A DNA stretch of 64,000 bases from Verrucomicrobiota bacterium (GTDB lineage Bacteria > Verrucomicrobiota > Verrucomicrobiia > Opitutales > Cerasicoccaceae), in NCBI GenBank assembly GCA_039818205.1, contig JBCBUK010000016.1:1-64000 (forward strand), read 5' to 3'. Below are positions 12,376 through 16,193 of this stretch, one piece after another (within the stretch, counting starts at the first letter, position 1; every line of letters starts with the position of its first letter). The notes under the pieces were generated by a model. The model was not told where the DNA came from. It worked only from the letters and a program-made list of their open reading frames with translations, and searched no databases. The position numbers were made by a program, and so were the translations under genes.

Positions 12376-13078
12376 CCCAACTCAACGACTTCAACGGTGC
12401 CCTTGCCACCAACACGCAAGGTGAAACGTCACGTAAATGGCGTCCAAACCGCGTCTTCGGCCATTCCCGAATATCGCGATAGGGGCGGAATGGCATTACT
12501 GTGTCTGAAGTCCATTAAGAGACTCGGGCAAAGCATTAGGTTGGGAAAAGCGAATCATTGACTAAGTGGATATTATCAAAAGATAGGTGAAATATCTGAA
12601 AAATCGGCTATTATATAGTGGTCCCACAACTAATCACTCACCCTCGTAATCCAACTCCCCAATTACATGACCCCATTTCATCCCGCTGCGAAATTTTAAG
12701 GGAACTTTATGTCAGAAACACTGACGGATCCGGTATATAAATAGGATCTCCCGCTGCATCATTCGTGGTAAACCGGGGTTTACTGAACCATAACACCAGC
12801 AGCCAAAAGAATTGCTTTAAGGAAACATGCCGCCGCCCGGCTAATATAGCAGGAAAATAGCCCTCTGGTAGGATCTGGAGACAACCGGGCGGCGGCGAAT
12901 CCCCTTCCTTCGTTTTTGCGCAAATTCTTGCGCAATCTTTAAAGACTAACCGCCGATCCCTATCGCTGCACGGTGGCTTCAACGTGCCTAGGGTTTTAAT
13001 ACTACAGAGCAGCCGGTTGACCCTTCATAGGCAACGGGTATGTAGGCATTTCAAAACCACATCGCGGCTCACACTTTC

Positions 13079-13150
13079 GCCTTCTTAGTTTAATTGGCAG
13101 AACATCCGGTTTTTGCCCGGTTGGTCCTGGTTCAAGTCCAGGAGGGGGTA
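13079..13150 (+). tRNA. Atypical tRNA (anticodon TTT/Lys by position; possibly degenerate Gln-TTG), no encoded CCA
   Basis: GCCTTCT/AGGGGGT acceptor with three G-U pairs; GTTT-AATTGGCA-GAAC D arm; CCGG-TTTTTGC-CCGG; CCTGG-TTCAAGT-CCAGG. Confidence 0.7.
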
Positions 13151-13165
13151 ATTTCCAACAACACA

Positions 13166-13213
13166 ATGATTAGACTACGAGATACGATTCGTCTTCAGCG
13201 GGCTCAGACATGA
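13166..13213 (+). CDS. Putative leader peptide 3 (MIRLRDTIRLQRAQT)
   Basis: ATG ATT AGA CTA CGA GAT...ACA TGA after an A/C-rich stretch; its codons 3-6 are complementary to the downstream hairpin. Confidence 0.45.
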   Translation: MIRLRDTIRLQRAQT

Positions 13214-13253
13214 TCAGAATCGGGACTAGTCCATCTTATGCTACTACATACTT

Positions 13254-13290
13254 AAACCCATCTCGTAGTTACGATCTAAAGGGTTTTTCT
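13254..13290 (+). terminator. Imperfect terminator / attenuator 3 directly before the main tRNA array
   Basis: AAACCC (13254-59)/GGGTTT (13281-86) with inner TCGT/ACGA, ending in TTTTTCT. Confidence 0.45.
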
Positions 13291-13370
13291 GCCGTGCTGC
13301 CGGATTTGATGTCGAATCAAATACGGAAGCGGGAGCGTTATGCGCTCAATTGGGGACACACCCAAACCAT

Positions 13371-13446
13371 GGGCTCATGGTGAAAGCGAATATCATGGAG
13401 CGCTACGAACGCTTCGTTGGAGGTTTGAGTCCTCCTGAGCCTACCA
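13371..13446 (+). tRNA. tRNA-Arg(ACG), atypical D and T loops
   Basis: GGGCTCA/TGAGCCT acceptor; GAGCG-CTACGAA-CGCTT; GGAGG-TTTGAGT-CCTCC; ACCA end. Confidence 0.85.
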
Positions 13447-13460
13447 GTTCTACAATTGCT

Positions 13461-13537
13461 CAGGTGCGCAGCCCAAGTGGCAGGGGCACCGGTCCGTGAC
13501 ACCGGGGATGTGGGTTCAAATCCCACCCACCTGACCA
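13461..13537 (+). tRNA. Atypical tRNA, GTG (His) anticodon
   Basis: CAGGTG/CACCTG acceptor with an irregular base; GCCC/GGGC D arm; CCGGT-CCGTGAC-ACCGG (C33); GTGGG-TTCAAAT-CCCAC; ACCA end. Confidence 0.7.
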
Positions 13538-13568
13538 CCCTTTCGGCCAAGAGATCTCCTTGGCTCAT

Positions 13569-13642
13569 GCACGTATCGTCCAACGGTAAGACTGCGCTCT
13601 TCCACAGCGAGGATGCTGGTTCGATTCCGGCTGCGTGCACCA
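13569..13642 (+). tRNA. tRNA-Gly(TCC), A discriminator
   Basis: GCACGTA/TGCGTGC; CGCT-CTTCCAC-AGCG; GCTGG-TTCGATT-CCGGC; ACCA. Confidence 0.85.
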
Positions 13643-13650
13643 ATTGCCAT

Positions 13651-13727
13651 GGCGCTGAACCCAAATGGACGCGGGCGCGGGTCTGCAGAACCCGCCATAT
13701 CAGGTTCAATTCCTGACGGCGCCTCCA
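13651..13727 (+). tRNA. tRNA-Cys(GCA)
   Basis: GGCGCTG/CGGCGCC; CGGGT-CTGCAGA-ACCCG; TCAGG-TTCAATT-CCTGA; U73-CCA. Confidence 0.88.
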
Positions 13728-13732
13728 TTTGA

Positions 13733-13807
13733 TGCGAGAGACTGTATACGGCAACGCGGCAGAGGTTAATTCTGCAGTTGAAAGTTCGAGCCTTTCTCTC
13801 GTAACCA
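13733..13807 (+). tRNA. tRNA-like element, anticodon position TTA (pseudo/suppressor-like)
   Basis: TGCGAGA/TCTCGTA; GCAGA-GGTTAAT-TCTGC; GAAAG-TTCGAGC-CTTTC; ACCA; weak D arm. Confidence 0.65.
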
Positions 13808-13854
13808 AAAATATACTATTTATGGTTGTAATATACCGTATCACGTGAAGACTT

Positions 13855-13943
13855 TATTCGTCGAGTCGGCGGCGGTGGGTCCCTCCTAGCCATAGTCGGA
13901 TTGTGGATCCACCGTTCCGCCTCGGCCCTCTAAGCGACGAATA
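13855..13943 (+). ncRNA. Rod-shaped structured RNA inside the tRNA array (family unknown)
   Basis: Nested helices TATTCGTCG/CGACGAATA, GGCGG/CCGCC and CGGTGGGTCC/GGATCCACCG. Confidence 0.55.
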
Positions 13944-13953
13944 GAACAAGCAG

Positions 13954-14029
13954 GCAACAATCGTATAGCGGGCAAATACACTTGGGCATTGCCCAGGAAA
14001 CCTCGGTTCGAATCCGGGTTGTTGCACCA
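13954..14029 (+). tRNA. tRNA-like element, anticodon position ATT with self-pairing loop
   Basis: GCAACAA/TTGTTGC; GTAT/ATAC D arm; CTTGG-GCATTGC-CCAGG; CTCGG-TTCGAAT-CCGGG; ACCA. Confidence 0.75.
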
Positions 14030-14032
14030 AAC

Positions 14033-14107
14033 GAACTGTTAGCTCAGTAAGGTTAGAGCATTGGTCTGAAGAACCAAGTGTCTCAGGTTCAAATCCTGGA
14101 CAGTACC
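14033..14107 (+). tRNA. tRNA-Phe(GAA), no encoded CCA
   Basis: GAACTGT/ACAGTAC (one mismatch); GCTC/GAGC; TTGGT-CTGAAGA-ACCAA; TCAGG-TTCAAAT-CCTGG. Confidence 0.85.
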
Positions 14108-14212
14108 GCGAACCTAGAGAATGCGGGTTCGAGTCCCGCCTCCCCCGCATAGCCCATCGGCTGGTGGGCTGTGCGGGGGAGTAGTTCAATGGTCGAACAC
14201 TAGACGAGACGC
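14107..14212 (+). ncRNA. Circularly permuted tRNA mimic, YrlA-type bacterial Y RNA candidate
   Basis: Order is CTAG, T arm (GCGGG-TTCGAGT-CCCGC), 19-bp loop-closed acceptor helix (14140-58/14163-81), TA, D arm (GTTC-AATGGTC-GAAC), A, CTAG. Confidence 0.75.
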
Positions 14213-14406
14213 CAAGGCAAAGGCGAAAACATAAGCCACTAGCCTATTACGCTAGACACAACGCAAGTACGAGAGGAACGCAAATAACAGCCCAAGGGAA
14301 GCTTCGCGCGGATGGGACGCCAGGGTTTGGCCTGCTGGGAGATTCTCATCAGCCACGATCCAGCGCTGCGACCACCTGTATCAATGCGGATACCGGATTT
14401 GCCTTG
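14213..14406 (+). ncRNA. ~195-nt structured RNA containing a sarcin-ricin loop sequence
   Basis: Closing helix CAAGGCAAA (14213-21)/TTTGCCTTG (14398-406); internal hairpins CTAGC/GCTAG, GCGC-GGAT/ATCC-A-GCGC and GTATC/GATAC; AGTACGAGAGGA at 14266-77. Confidence 0.55.
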
Positions 14407-14675
14407 CCTCAGAAAACCACAAGCGCAAACCGCGCTACAATGAGTCCGACAGCAGGGGCCACGCGCTCCAGCCAGCTGACTTTGCGTAGCAAAGTTTCTG
14501 TCGACGATCGACTAAGAGCATCGCATTTCCTCAAGCATTGATCCGTGGCATCGCCGCGTGGCCAACCACCCTGCCCGACTTCCCGCGGGCCCATTTCCCA
14601 ATGCTAATTATTGCTCCAGCAGCACTCTGCTGATGGAGCTCATATAAAACCAAACAAACCTCAAACTCAAGTAAC

Positions 14676-16193
14676 ATGATACCAATCAAACATGCACAAA
14701 TCCCTTATGAGCACGTTGGTTTGGTATATCGTTCCGGTCGATTTGTGGAACTCCTGAAGCCTGGCCGCCACTGGTTCTTTAACCCACTGGGAGAGCTATC
14801 CATTGGCAAGCTATGGCAAGGAAACCCATGGATTGAAATGCCCGCTACACAACTGCGCCAGCTCCGCGAATCTGAATCGATTCAAGAGTATGCTGCATTC
14901 ATTGATCTCAATGACAATCAGCGCGCACTCGTGTGGTTGGACGACCGGTTCTACGGTATCCTAAACACCGGGCTCTATGCGTACTGGACAACTGTCGTCA
15001 AAGTTCGCATCGAAATCGTCGATATTCGCGAGATCGAATTCAAACACGATGAAGCGGATATTATCCTCAAGCACGCTGATGCGATTCGTCACCTCAACGT
15101 CTACGAAAACACCGAAAGCCAAGGTAGCGTGATCTACGTTAACGGTCGTTACCACAACGCATTCGGCCCTGGACGATTTGGTTACTGGAAGAATGGCCAA
15201 ACGGTTATCCGAGTGCCATTCCCCCTACCTTGGATCACCCTCCCTGATAAGGAGCTCAAGCTCCTGAAGGAATCCGGTGAAATCGATTCCAAGGTAAACT
15301 TCATCGACGTCAGCGATAAACAACGAGCCCTCGTCTGGATCAACGGCCGCTTCGGCCGCGCCCTCGGACCAGGCCTCTACGCACACTGGAAGGAAGGCTT
15401 TGATACCCGCGTCGAAATGATTGAGATCGATGCACCGCAGTTTCTTCACCAAGAACTCGATGCGATCCAAATCCACCCCGACGCAAATCAATTCCTGAAC
15501 TTCCATGATATCGGCGACGGTATGACGGGCTTGCTCTACCTCAACGGTGAGCTCGCCGAGATTCTTCCACCTGGACGCTACTCGTTCTGGAAGCATGTCG
15601 GCAACGTTCGTCTTTACCAATTCGATCTCCGTGAAAAAGTCCTCGACGTTACCGGACAGGACATCATGACGGCAGATAAGGTTACCCTGCGAATCAACGC
15701 AGTTCTAACCTACCGAATCGACGATGTTCGTAAGGTCGCAGAAACGGTTGAGAACGCCGAACAGGCACTCTACCGGGAGCTGCAACTTATCATCCGTGCA
15801 GAAGTCGGTGGACGTACACTCGACCAACTTCTGAGCGATAAAACCGCAGTGGCGCACGATGCGCTAACGGCGATCCAAAAGAAGGCTGAGCAATACGGTC
15901 TCCAAGTCAAAGGTCTAGGTATCCGCGATGTCATCCTACCCGGAGACATGAAGGAACTCCTCAACCAAGTGATCGAGGCTGAAAAGGCAGCGCAGGCCAA
16001 CGTTATCAAACGTCGTGAAGAAACGGCTGCGATGCGTAGCCAACTCAACACTGCCAAGCTCATTGAACAAAACCCGACGCTCTTGCGTCTGCGAGAACTC
16101 GAGTCCCTCGAGAAGATCGCCGAAAAGACCAACCTCCAAATCTTCGTGGGAGATGGCCAAGGTCTATCCAAGAGCCTCATGAAACTCATCTAA
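14676..16193 (+). CDS. Slipin-family (SPFH/band 7) protein
   Basis: GQDIMTADKVTLRIN, LYRELQ, IRDVILPGDMKELLNQVIEAEKAAQANVIKRREETAAMRS.LNTAK and NPTLLRLRELE. Confidence 0.93.
   Translation: MIPIKHAQIPYEHVGLVYRSGRFVELLKPGRHWFFNPLGELSIGKLWQGNPWIEMPATQLRQLRESESIQEYAAFIDLNDNQRALVWLDDRFYGILNTGLYAYWTTVVKVRIEIVDIREIEFKHDEADIILKHADAIRHLNVYENTESQGSVIYVNGRYHNAFGPGRFGYWKNGQTVIRVPFPLPWITLPDKELKLLKESGEIDSKVNFIDVSDKQRALVWINGRFGRALGPGLYAHWKEGFDTRVEMIEIDAPQFLHQELDAIQIHPDANQFLNFHDIGDGMTGLLYLNGELAEILPPGRYSFWKHVGNVRLYQFDLREKVLDVTGQDIMTADKVTLRINAVLTYRIDDVRKVAETVENAEQALYRELQLIIRAEVGGRTLDQLLSDKTAVAHDALTAIQKKAEQYGLQVKGLGIRDVILPGDMKELLNQVIEAEKAAQANVIKRREETAAMRSQLNTAKLIEQNPTLLRLRELESLEKIAEKTNLQIFVGDGQGLSKSLMKLI

What the first reader, a model, noticed from the sequence alone, without database searches (positions are those of the whole stretch)
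14213..14406. Stand-alone structured RNA carrying an exact sarcin-ricin loop
AGTACGAGAGGA (14266-14277) is the universally conserved SRL dodecamer of 23S/28S rRNA. Here it extends to AGTACGAGAGGAAC and is closed by C14264-G14280 and G14263-C14281 in the rRNA register. It sits inside a domain closed by a 9-bp helix (CAAGGCAAA/TTTGCCTTG) with several internal hairpins, and the flanks are not rRNA. The chance expectation of a given 12-mer on either strand of 64 kb is about 0.008, and this copy falls inside the tRNA/Y-RNA cassette. Inference: an SRL mimic acting as a decoy or sensor for SRL-cleaving or depurinating toxins, or as a ligand for translational GTPases. Caveats: only two Watson-Crick pairs close the loop, and the AGUA/GAA bulged-G motif is a generic RNA module.
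Basis: partly seen in the sequence, partly recalled or inferred. Interest (0 to 1): 0.9.

Follow-up and report, generated by a model that had tools for sequence, protein, structure and literature searches.

The report
SRL look-alike hairpin in Band-7 RNA
A small hairpin that copies the ribosome's sarcin-ricin loop letter for letter is real and conserved in four related marine bacteria, but it is one genus's version of an ordinary capped hairpin at the front of a much larger, widespread, uncatalogued folded RNA lying between a tRNA gene array and a vault-protein-like (SPFH/Band-7) gene.

Summary
The 12-mer AGTACGAGAGGA is at 14266-14277, closed as described. Alone it is weak evidence: 0.57 copies are expected per genome. 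It is nevertheless under selection. In four same-genus genomes the 16-nt run AGTACGAGAGGAACGC is the longest invariant stretch of a ~400-nt conserved spacer that is otherwise 59-62% identical to the window.

It is not a stand-alone RNA. It is hairpin P1 of a ~390-nt RNA (about 14207-14600). The core of that RNA is closed by a covarying long-range helix, 14290-14301 with 14579-14590. The family lies between same-strand tRNA arrays and an SPFH/Band-7 gene in Verrucomicrobiota, Planctomycetota and other phyla, and is not in Rfam 15. Relatives carry at this position a plain hairpin, often GNRA-capped, or none; a same-genus genome has a GTAA-capped hairpin. The 12-mer is absent outside the four genomes.

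Best reading: a genus-specific S-turn plus GAGA rebuild of a peripheral docking or protein-binding hairpin. A true decoy or sensor role remains possible, because the cassette is tied to RNA repair, but is untested. This scan noted the leader family before on other genomes.

The parts
13079..14107 (+). Array of 7 same-strand tRNA genes (Lys, Arg, His, Gly, Cys, Asn-ATT, Phe) upstream of the RNA
   Evidence: ARAGORN; Rfam tRNA. Orthologous SPFH loci also have same-strand arrays.
13856..13943 (+).
   Evidence: Read. Homologous blocks in L002-L004 and L012. No Rfam match. No TROVE/Ro gene in the genome.
14115..14206 (+). Circularly permuted tRNA-like element (T arm, capped acceptor stem, D arm) in the place where relatives have the last tRNA(-like) gene
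   Evidence: Weak YrlA match, 32.1 bits against gathering 69, E 1.4e-4; anatomy read.
14210..14225 (+). 5'-most hairpin (CGCC/GGCG, 8-nt loop).
   Evidence: RNAalifold: two pairs kept through changes on both sides. Equivalent hairpins in G116, G152, G090 and G281.
14239..14255 (+). P0 hairpin: 5-bp stem CTAGC/GCTAG with a 7-nt anticodon-loop-like loop
   Evidence: Conserved. Hairpins with 7-nt loops that mostly start with CT are common in the 46 family members.
14263..14281 (+). P1 hairpin, the SRL look-alike: 2 Watson-Crick closing pairs, bulged-G (S-turn) module, C-G pair and GAGA tetraloop; it ends 8 nt before the core
   Evidence: Relatives have a hairpin about 8 nt upstream of the core, GNRA-capped in 11 of 46.
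14290..14301 (+). 5' strand of the core-closing helix (Pa GCCC 14290-14293, 2-nt loop, Pb GGGAAG 14296-14301)
   Evidence: Covariation count: 491 of 571 cells paired in 44 distinct sequences.
14388..14395 (+). GGATACCG, the most conserved motif of the family
   Evidence: Invariant in 14 of 14 sequences. Exact in 27, and with <=1 mismatch in 45, of 71 loci, 150-450 nt upstream of the SPFH start.
14579..14590 (+). 3' strand of the core-closing helix (Pb CTTCCC 14579-14584, GC, Pa GGGC 14587-14590). A competing local hairpin GCCCG 14573-14577 with CGGGC 14586-14590 is possible.
14591..14600 (+). T-containing tail after the closing helix; probable 3' end or attenuation point of the RNA
   Evidence: >=4 T in the next 9 nt in 37 of 46 family members. 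The window itself has only 3 of 9.
14676..16193 (+). SPFH/Band-7 gene (505 aa) with a duplicated N-terminal beta domain; the model resembles major vault protein along its whole length
   Evidence: Pfam Band_7 7.3e-35; internal duplication E 2e-26; AlphaFold2 pLDDT 82; Foldseek MVP chains E 3e-14 to 6e-9 over 551-623 columns.

Best explanation
Window 14263-14281 is the P1 hairpin of a roughly 390-nt non-coding RNA (about 14207-14600). That RNA follows the last tRNA-like gene of a tRNA array and precedes a Band-7/SPFH gene.

Shown:
- The RNA has a ~300-nt core closed by a covarying long-range helix and followed, in most members, by a U-rich tail.
- One to three small hairpins sit outside the core on the 5' side.
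- The hairpin nearest the core lies about 8 nt from it and is often capped by a GNRA tetraloop.
- In four genomes of one genus its stem is a bulged-G (S-turn) module under a C-G pair and a GAGA loop. That combination is, letter for letter, the ribosomal sarcin-ricin loop.

Inferred:
- The identity with the SRL is convergence. An S-turn plus one closing pair plus a GNRA loop leaves few free letters. The alternative of a 12-13-nt patch copied from rRNA is less likely.
- The hairpin works as the plain GNRA hairpin of relatives does. It is an exposed, rigid docking element, either for a protein of the RNP (the vault-protein-like Band-7 protein or another partner) or for a tertiary contact with the core.
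- The S-turn adds a sequence-specific protein-binding surface, which would explain why every letter is frozen.
- The whole RNA is most likely either the RNA partner of the Band-7 protein or a cis-acting leader whose closing helix and U tail set read-through into the gene. The data do not tell these apart.
For: - Position: the SRL hairpin ends 8 nt before the core. A hairpin within about 4-14 nt of the core, most often 8 nt, is the rule in most of the 46 family members.
- Loop type: 11 of 46 have GNRA loops there (GAAA 4, GCAA 3, GAGA 2, GGAA 1, GTAA 1), not counting the 3 SRL-bearing rows that RNAfold cannot fold.
- Same-genus G004 has GGCGCGTAAGCGTC at the site, near-identical to the planctomycete form. 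The S-turn version is therefore derived.
- The 12-mer is absent from all other orthologous loci. A looser S-turn plus GNRA pattern hits only the four genomes and an rRNA-like contig.
- The core is real. The closing helix is 86% canonical (491 of 571 cells, 44 distinct sequences), against 73% for shuffles (maximum 76% of 1000) and 47-59% for slid partners, with 3-6 canonical pair types at most positions.
- The SRL flanks differ from the genome's own 23S SRL.
- The Band-7 protein model resembles major vault protein, the shell of an RNA-associated particle.
Against: - The 16-nt invariant run is the longest in the RNA within the genus, longer than the family-wide GGATACCGG. That is more constraint than a mere GNRA-presenting stem needs.
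- The cassette belongs to a predicted RNA-repair context (RtcB sits between the RNA and Band-7 in L117). The SRL is a classical target of RNA-damaging toxins (established knowledge), so functional mimicry is not far-fetched.
- No tetraloop receptor or protein partner was identified.
- Only four genomes, about three independent lineages, carry it (G001 and G005 are 93% identical).
- Many family members have no P1 at all, so even the generic role of P1 is dispensable.
- Transcript ends are not known.
Confidence: 0.55

Rival explanations
1. Functional SRL mimic. The hairpin imitates the ribosomal SRL in order to be bound or cut by SRL-directed toxins, as a decoy or as a cis-acting damage sensor that switches the cassette on, or to bind translational GTPases.
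For: - Exact 12-mer in the rRNA register with closing pairs.
- Longest invariant run of the RNA in four genomes.
- It lies exposed outside the core.
- The same RNA carries tRNA-like and anticodon-loop-like modules.
- The Band-7/tRNA-like cassette is linked to RtcB RNA repair.
- Earlier scan notes report S-turn arms on tRNA-like RNAs in phage tRNA clusters (unchecked here).
Against: - Confined to four genomes of one genus.
- A same-genus relative and many planctomycetes have a plain GNRA hairpin there, and others have none, so the family's function does not need an SRL.
- Only 2-4 Watson-Crick pairs close it.
- The window's genome has neither RtcB nor Ro.
- No assay was possible.
Confidence: 0.2
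2. Lineage-specific, functionally neutral elaboration of a dispensable hairpin; the match to the SRL is a coincidence kept by short divergence time.
For: - P1 is variable or absent across the family.
- 0.57 chance copies of the 12-mer are expected per genome.
- Only about three independent lineages carry it.
Against: The window's RNA is only 59-62% identical to the other three overall, with 45% of columns invariant. Yet 16 consecutive columns are invariant exactly over the motif. The linkers on both sides vary in length and sequence.
Confidence: 0.12
3. Stand-alone structured RNA domain 14213-14406 closed by the 9-bp helix, or a pseudoknot between the first hairpin's loop and 14398-14406.
For: A perfect 9-bp complement exists in the window. 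By eye, shorter and shifted complements (5-7 bp, several G-U) can be drawn in G001, G002 and G005.
Against: - Not kept in the aligned columns of relatives.
- It competes with a covarying local hairpin.
- Nothing comparable was seen by eye in G152 or G281, and only 4 bp in G116.
- Conservation continues to about 14600, and the covarying closure is elsewhere.
Confidence: 0.08
4. Fragment or pseudogene of 23S rRNA.
For: The 12-mer is shared with the genome's 23S gene.
Against: Identity stops at 12 nt and the flanks differ. There is no LSU rRNA match in 12800-14800 even at E<=10. The conserved context is the leader of an SPFH gene.
Confidence: 0.02

Closest known systems
Sarcin-ricin loop of 23S/28S rRNA (helix 95)
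   Same: The 12 universal nucleotides are identical, in the same register: closing C-G, bulged G, C-G pair and GAGA tetraloop (anatomy of the SRL from established knowledge).
   Different: - Not in rRNA.
- The flanks and the two 'flexible region' positions differ from the genome's own 23S.
- The lower stem has only 2-4 pairs.
- It is present in four genomes of one genus rather than universally.
Bulged-G / loop-E (S-turn) modules and GNRA-capped peripheral hairpins of large structured RNAs
   Same: AGTA/GAA consensus with a GNRA cap on an exposed hairpin outside a compact core. Relatives use plain GNRA hairpins at the same place.
   Different: No receptor or partner has been identified here. 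The whole SRL, not only the S-turn, is reproduced.
[quoted passage not shown]
   Same: A Band-7 gene is preceded by a tRNA-like gene. A YrlA-like element stands in for it in the window, as that passage says can happen. RtcB is adjacent in L117.
   Different: - The passage speaks of a tRNA-like RNA only. Here a further ~300-nt core RNA and whole tRNA arrays are attached.
- The window's genome has no RtcB or Ro.
- I could not read the original paper.
YrlA / bacterial Y RNA with Ro60
   Same: A permuted tRNA-like module at 14115-14206 gives a weak YrlA match.
   Different: The score is far below gathering (32 against 69). There is no TROVE gene in the genome. The SRL hairpin lies outside that module.
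Vault particle (major vault protein plus vault RNAs)
   Same: The Band-7 protein model aligns along its whole length with MVP chains: beta repeats, SPFH-like shoulder and long helix. A non-coding RNA is encoded beside it.
   Different: Identity is 11-13% and TM-score 0.32-0.36, with only 2-4 repeats. No assembly or RNA binding has been shown, and the RNA is unrelated to vault RNAs as far as Rfam tells.

Membership tests
Ribosomal sarcin-ricin loop (23S H95) | Universal 12-nt sequence with GAGA tetraloop and bulged G | tested here: met
   Exact at 14266-14277.
Ribosomal sarcin-ricin loop (23S H95) | Embedded in domain VI of LSU rRNA | tested here: not met
   No LSU match in 12800-14800 at E<=10. 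The true 23S is on contig C2.
Ribosomal sarcin-ricin loop (23S H95) | Binds EF-G/EF-Tu; substrate of sarcin- or ricin-type enzymes | not testable with these tools
   Needs biochemistry.
Bulged-G (S-turn) motif | AGTA on the 5' strand opposite GAA on the 3' strand, flanked by pairs | tested here: met
   14266-14269 opposite 14276-14278, with C14270-G14275 above and C14264-G14280 below. The 3D fold is not testable here.
P1 hairpin of the Band-7-associated leader RNA (family defined here) | Hairpin a few nt (most often 8) upstream of the core-closing helix | tested here: met
   The hairpin ends at 14281 and the core starts at 14290. Spacing in relatives.
P1 hairpin of the Band-7-associated leader RNA (family defined here) | GNRA or other tetraloop cap | tested here: met
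   GAGA here. GNRA in 11 of 46 relatives and other 4-nt loops in 5.
Band-7-associated leader RNA (core) | Covarying long-range closing helix, GGATACCG motif, position between a tRNA(-like) gene and an SPFH gene | tested here: met
Band-7 / b7a-tRNA RNA-repair system (as described) | Band-7 gene next to a tRNA-like RNA gene | tested here: met
Band-7 / b7a-tRNA RNA-repair system (as described) | Adjacent RtcB ligase | tested here: not met
   No RtcB in the window's genome. It is present in L117.
YrlA / Y RNA | Rfam YrlA score at gathering and a neighbouring Ro60 (TROVE) gene | tested here: not met
   32.1 bits against 69. No TROVE gene in the genome.
Any Rfam 15 family (T-box, GOLLD, ROOL, riboswitches and so on) for 14207-14600 | Covariance-model match | tested here: not met
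   No match at E<=10 in the window, nor at E<=0.01 in 12 related loci.

The most novel reading that the evidence does not exclude
The leader RNA is a cis-acting 'bait' that displays copies of the classical targets of RNA-cutting toxins: whole tRNA mimics, an anticodon-loop-like hairpin and, in Cerasicoccus-like bacteria, a perfect sarcin-ricin loop. A cut or depurination in a bait module would refold the closing helix and U-tail region, or create repairable ends. That would switch on or load the vault-protein-like Band-7 (and, where present, RtcB) response. This would be a riboswitch-like sensor of RNA damage.
Probability: 0.12. Interest if true: 0.9.

Novelty: new variant of a known kind. Interest (0 to 1): 0.5.

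Why it matters
A complete sarcin-ricin loop maintained by selection outside the ribosome is rare. It sits on an RNA attached to a cassette that comparative genomics links to RNA repair. It therefore gives a concrete handle for asking whether bacteria use target mimics to sense or absorb ribotoxic damage. C. frondis NBRC 105381, whose title names a culture-collection strain, carries the same block (L038), so the question can be put to a cultured bacterium.

Independently of that, the work places the hairpin in a large, covariation-supported RNA family. The family is absent from Rfam 15, spans at least Verrucomicrobiota and Planctomycetota, and is always tied to same-strand tRNA arrays and to an SPFH protein whose model resembles major vault protein. 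That is a possible bacterial counterpart of an RNA-associated cage. This scan has met the leader family before on other genomes, so the family itself is not new to the scan. The SRL version of its P1 hairpin is.

Tried and rejected
- Metagenome pattern scan with GCCCAAGGGRAG, a gap and GGATACCGG, free of the SRL. It gave 27 loci; by their upstream sequence all look like unrelated, mostly coding DNA, and none carries the 12-mer. No new members came from it.
- The look-up of sequencing runs: no RNA holder listed, and one DNA holder that may be the source. Read laying was therefore not used, and expression remains untested.
- RNAduplex between the 5' and 3' regions over-extended and was useless as a detector. 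It was replaced by a column-wise pair count. One search was flawed because the window's 5' block was misaligned, and one search corrects it.
- RNAalifold on a MAFFT alignment of the middle region of 33 planctomycete members gave no structure. The helices I saw there by eye are not claimed.
- The simple promoter and terminator scan of 12400-14800 gave nothing above shuffles on the + strand.
- PADLOC: no defence family for the SPFH protein or its neighbours. NCBIfam: only sub-threshold HflK/C matches.
- The upstream genes (PfkB-type kinase, isomerase-like) look unrelated to the cassette.
- Literature. 'tRNA array' with 'SPFH': 0 papers. 'b7a-tRNA': 1 paper. The sarcin-ricin/mimic/decoy search returned only irrelevant lncRNA papers. 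Burroughs and Aravind 2016 is not held under its DOI or PMC id, so I cannot say whether it already describes the RNA beyond the tRNA-like part.
- A resemblance of the GGATACCG region to the tRNA-acceptor-binding bulge of T-box leaders was considered from memory only. Rfam's T-box model does not match, and I make no claim.
- rRNA-fragment origin: rejected.

Full report
**Observation.** Reading the window confirms AGTACGAGAGGA at 14266-14277, its extension to 14279, the possible closing pairs C14264-G14280 and G14263-C14281, and the 9-bp complement 14213-14221 / 14398-14406. Rfam 15 finds only tRNAs in the window at gathering. In 12800-14800 at E<=10 it adds nothing over 14213-14406 apart from a weak YrlA match just upstream, at 14115-14206 (32.1 bits, gathering 69). 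ARAGORN finds seven same-strand tRNA genes in 13079-14107.

The 12-mer by itself is not rare enough to matter. The composition-aware expectation is 0.0075 per window but 0.57 per genome. With one mismatch allowed, 18 of 100 shuffles of the window give a hit. The genome holds the 12-mer at four places:
- the true 23S gene on contig C2 (Rfam LSU 718 bits);
- this site;
- two inverted copies on a 1.4-kb contig, C51, that is a poor LSU-like fragment (144 and 131 bits).

**Conservation.** A DNA search of 61 related genomes found the region in three same-genus genomes, G001, G002 and G005. All three carry it in the same place, after tRNA genes and before the ortholog of the downstream gene. The alignment shows a conserved spacer of about 400 nt, window 14207-14600. 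The window's copy is 59-62% identical to the other three. G001 and G005 are 93% identical to each other, so there are about three independent lineages. 189 of 423 columns are invariant. The longest invariant run is the 16-nt AGTACGAGAGGAACGC at 14266-14281, ahead of runs of 11 and 9 nt. The linkers on both sides of the hairpin vary in length and sequence. The motif is therefore under purifying selection in this genus.

**What it belongs to.** The downstream gene (14676-16193) encodes an SPFH/Band-7 protein. Its orthologs occur in 17 of 301 genomes sampled from the order. Most of the fetched loci have same-strand tRNA genes in front of the gene, several of them arrays of 6 to 12. The spacer between the last tRNA and the gene keeps a set of blocks across families, among them the invariant GGATACCG. 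A scan of genome contigs with an alignment of the protein found more than 581 relatives, and the best 80 loci were kept. They come mostly from Planctomycetota and Verrucomicrobiota, with some Desulfobacterota, Acidobacteriota and Lentisphaerota MAGs. The nearest titled record is Cerasicoccus frondis. Of the 71 loci with at least 600 nt upstream:
- 45 have GGATACCG with at most one mismatch (27 exact) 150-450 nt before the start codon, against roughly 0.11 expected per locus by chance;
- 51 have a same-strand tRNA ending 200-750 nt upstream;
- 37 have both.

All 226 upstream tRNA genes are on the gene's strand and none is on the other. No Rfam family matches the spacer in 12 related loci at E<=0.01.

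**Anatomy of the RNA.** In an E-INS-i alignment of 46 members the 5' block, GCCC then two nucleotides then GGGAAG in the window, pairs with the 3' block, CTTCCC then GC then GGGC. Over 13 positions and 44 distinct sequences, 491 of 571 cells are canonical (86%). Row shuffles give 73% (maximum 76% in 1000) and partners slid by 1-2 positions give 47-59%. Most positions show three to six canonical pair types. In the window this helix is 14290-14293 with 14587-14590, and 14296-14301 with 14579-14584. It encloses about 280 nt. In 37 of 46 members it is followed by a stretch with at least four T in nine; the window itself has three. A small local hairpin that competes for the 3' strand can be drawn in 23 of 46. 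I regard a terminator/anti-terminator switch as a hypothesis only.

Outside the core, on the 5' side, members have one to three hairpins:
- One common type has a 5-bp stem and a 7-nt loop, mostly starting with CT, like an anticodon loop. In the window this is 14239-14255.
- The hairpin nearest the core lies about 8 nt from it. It has a GNRA loop in 11 of 46 members (GAAA 4, GCAA 3, GAGA 2, GGAA 1, GTAA 1) and another 4-nt loop in 5.

The SRL hairpin ends at 14281, exactly 8 nt before the core. It is therefore the P1 hairpin of this family. Same-genus G004 has GGCGCGTAAGCGTC there, almost the planctomycete consensus, so the S-turn form is a derived state of four genomes. Other Verrucomicrobiota (G085, G116, G152, G090, G281, G010) have no P1-type hairpin at all. 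The exact 12-mer was found in:
- 9 of 35 loci, all from the four genomes;
- 1 of the 80 genome-contig loci, which duplicates G005;
- none of the 27 metagenome loci.

A looser S-turn-plus-GNRA pattern hits nothing else except contig C51.

Most of its 5' strand (14214-14221) is the loop of a hairpin, 14210-14225. That hairpin's stem changes on both sides in relatives while staying paired. The 9-bp pairing is not kept in the aligned columns of G001 and G002. It may be a window-specific pseudoknot, but it does not define the domain.

**Context and likely function.**
- The Discussion of bioRxiv 10.1101/312249 (passage read) reports that Burroughs and Aravind (2016) predicted a Band-7 protein with a 'band 7-associated tRNA' next to RtcB. 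It adds that YrlA is occasionally found next to the Band-7 gene. That matches the permuted tRNA-like, YrlA-like element at 14115-14206.
- I could not obtain the 2016 paper.
- In L117 the order is tRNA-like, GGATACCG RNA, RtcB (370 bits), Band-7.
- The window's genome has neither RtcB nor a TROVE protein.
- The Band-7 protein has a tandem duplication of its N-terminal domain.
- Its AlphaFold2 model (mean pLDDT 82) aligns over its whole length with major vault protein chains (E 3e-14 to 6e-9, 551-623 columns, 11-13% identity, TM 0.32-0.36). Stomatin-type hits cover only the C-terminal half. The RNA may thus be the partner of a cage-forming protein, or a leader that controls it, or both.

**Verdict on the hairpin.** The most economical reading is that P1 is an exposed docking hairpin and that one genus rebuilt its stem as an S-turn. 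With a C-G pair and a GAGA cap this necessarily spells the SRL. The frozen 16 nt fit a sequence-specific, non-Watson-Crick module that binds a protein. A true mimic, decoy or sensor role is not excluded, and the RNA-repair context makes it attractive.

**Earlier notes of this scan.** Several notes describe the same leader family before SPFH genes in other genomes, and others describe S-turn arms on tRNA-like RNAs of phages. I reached the family independently and tested its core here. I did not check the phage notes.

Noticed in passing
window 14115-14206: Circularly permuted tRNA-like element: T arm, an acceptor stem capped by its own hairpin, then a D arm. It gives a weak YrlA match (32 bits) although the genome has no Ro/TROVE gene. 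G001, G002 and G005 have an ordinary-order tRNA-like gene at this spot.
   Followed up: partly
window 13856-13943; L012 about 750-840; L002-L004 about 1140-1330: A ~90-nt rod-like hairpin RNA embedded in the tRNA array, with conserved internal blocks. It has no Rfam match. A similar block seems to be present upstream in a planctomycete locus (L111).
   Followed up: partly
window 14239-14255 and the equivalent hairpins of 46 family members: A 5-bp hairpin with a 7-nt loop, mostly starting with CT, that looks like an anticodon stem-loop recurs at the 5' end of the leader RNA across phyla.
   Followed up: partly
window 13079-14107; loci L012, L026, L038, L078 and others: The arrays hold odd tRNAs (for example Asn with anticodon ATT, and genes ARAGORN cannot assign). 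All 226 tRNA genes upstream of the 71 SPFH loci with enough upstream DNA are on the gene's strand. The tRNA next to the leader often matches the Rfam model only from about position 3-5 to 66-68, so its acceptor end is aberrant.
   Followed up: partly
G000 contig C51 (L036, 1391 nt): A short contig made of two inverted, poorly scoring LSU-rRNA-like pieces (144 and 131 bits), each with the SRL 12-mer. It may be an assembly artefact, a contaminant or an organelle-like fragment.
   Followed up: no
window 14676-16193: The SPFH protein model has repeated five-strand beta modules, an SPFH domain and a long helix. It aligns end to end with major vault protein. The 505-aa form (G000, G001, G002, G005, G085) arose by tandem duplication of the N-terminal module of the 371-aa form.
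   Followed up: partly
L117 860-3589: In a Desulfocapsaceae MAG the same RNA (tRNA-like gene, then the GGATACCG motif) precedes RtcB, and the Band-7 gene follows RtcB. The RNA thus heads the operon whichever gene comes first.
   Followed up: partly
L002 about 1900-2270: G001 has an extra ~300 nt between the end of the RNA and the SPFH start that the other genomes lack.
   Followed up: no
window 14573-14600: A local GC-rich hairpin (14573-14577 with 14586-14590) competes with the long-range closing helix for the same 3' strand, just before the T-containing tail. This could be a switch.
   Followed up: partly
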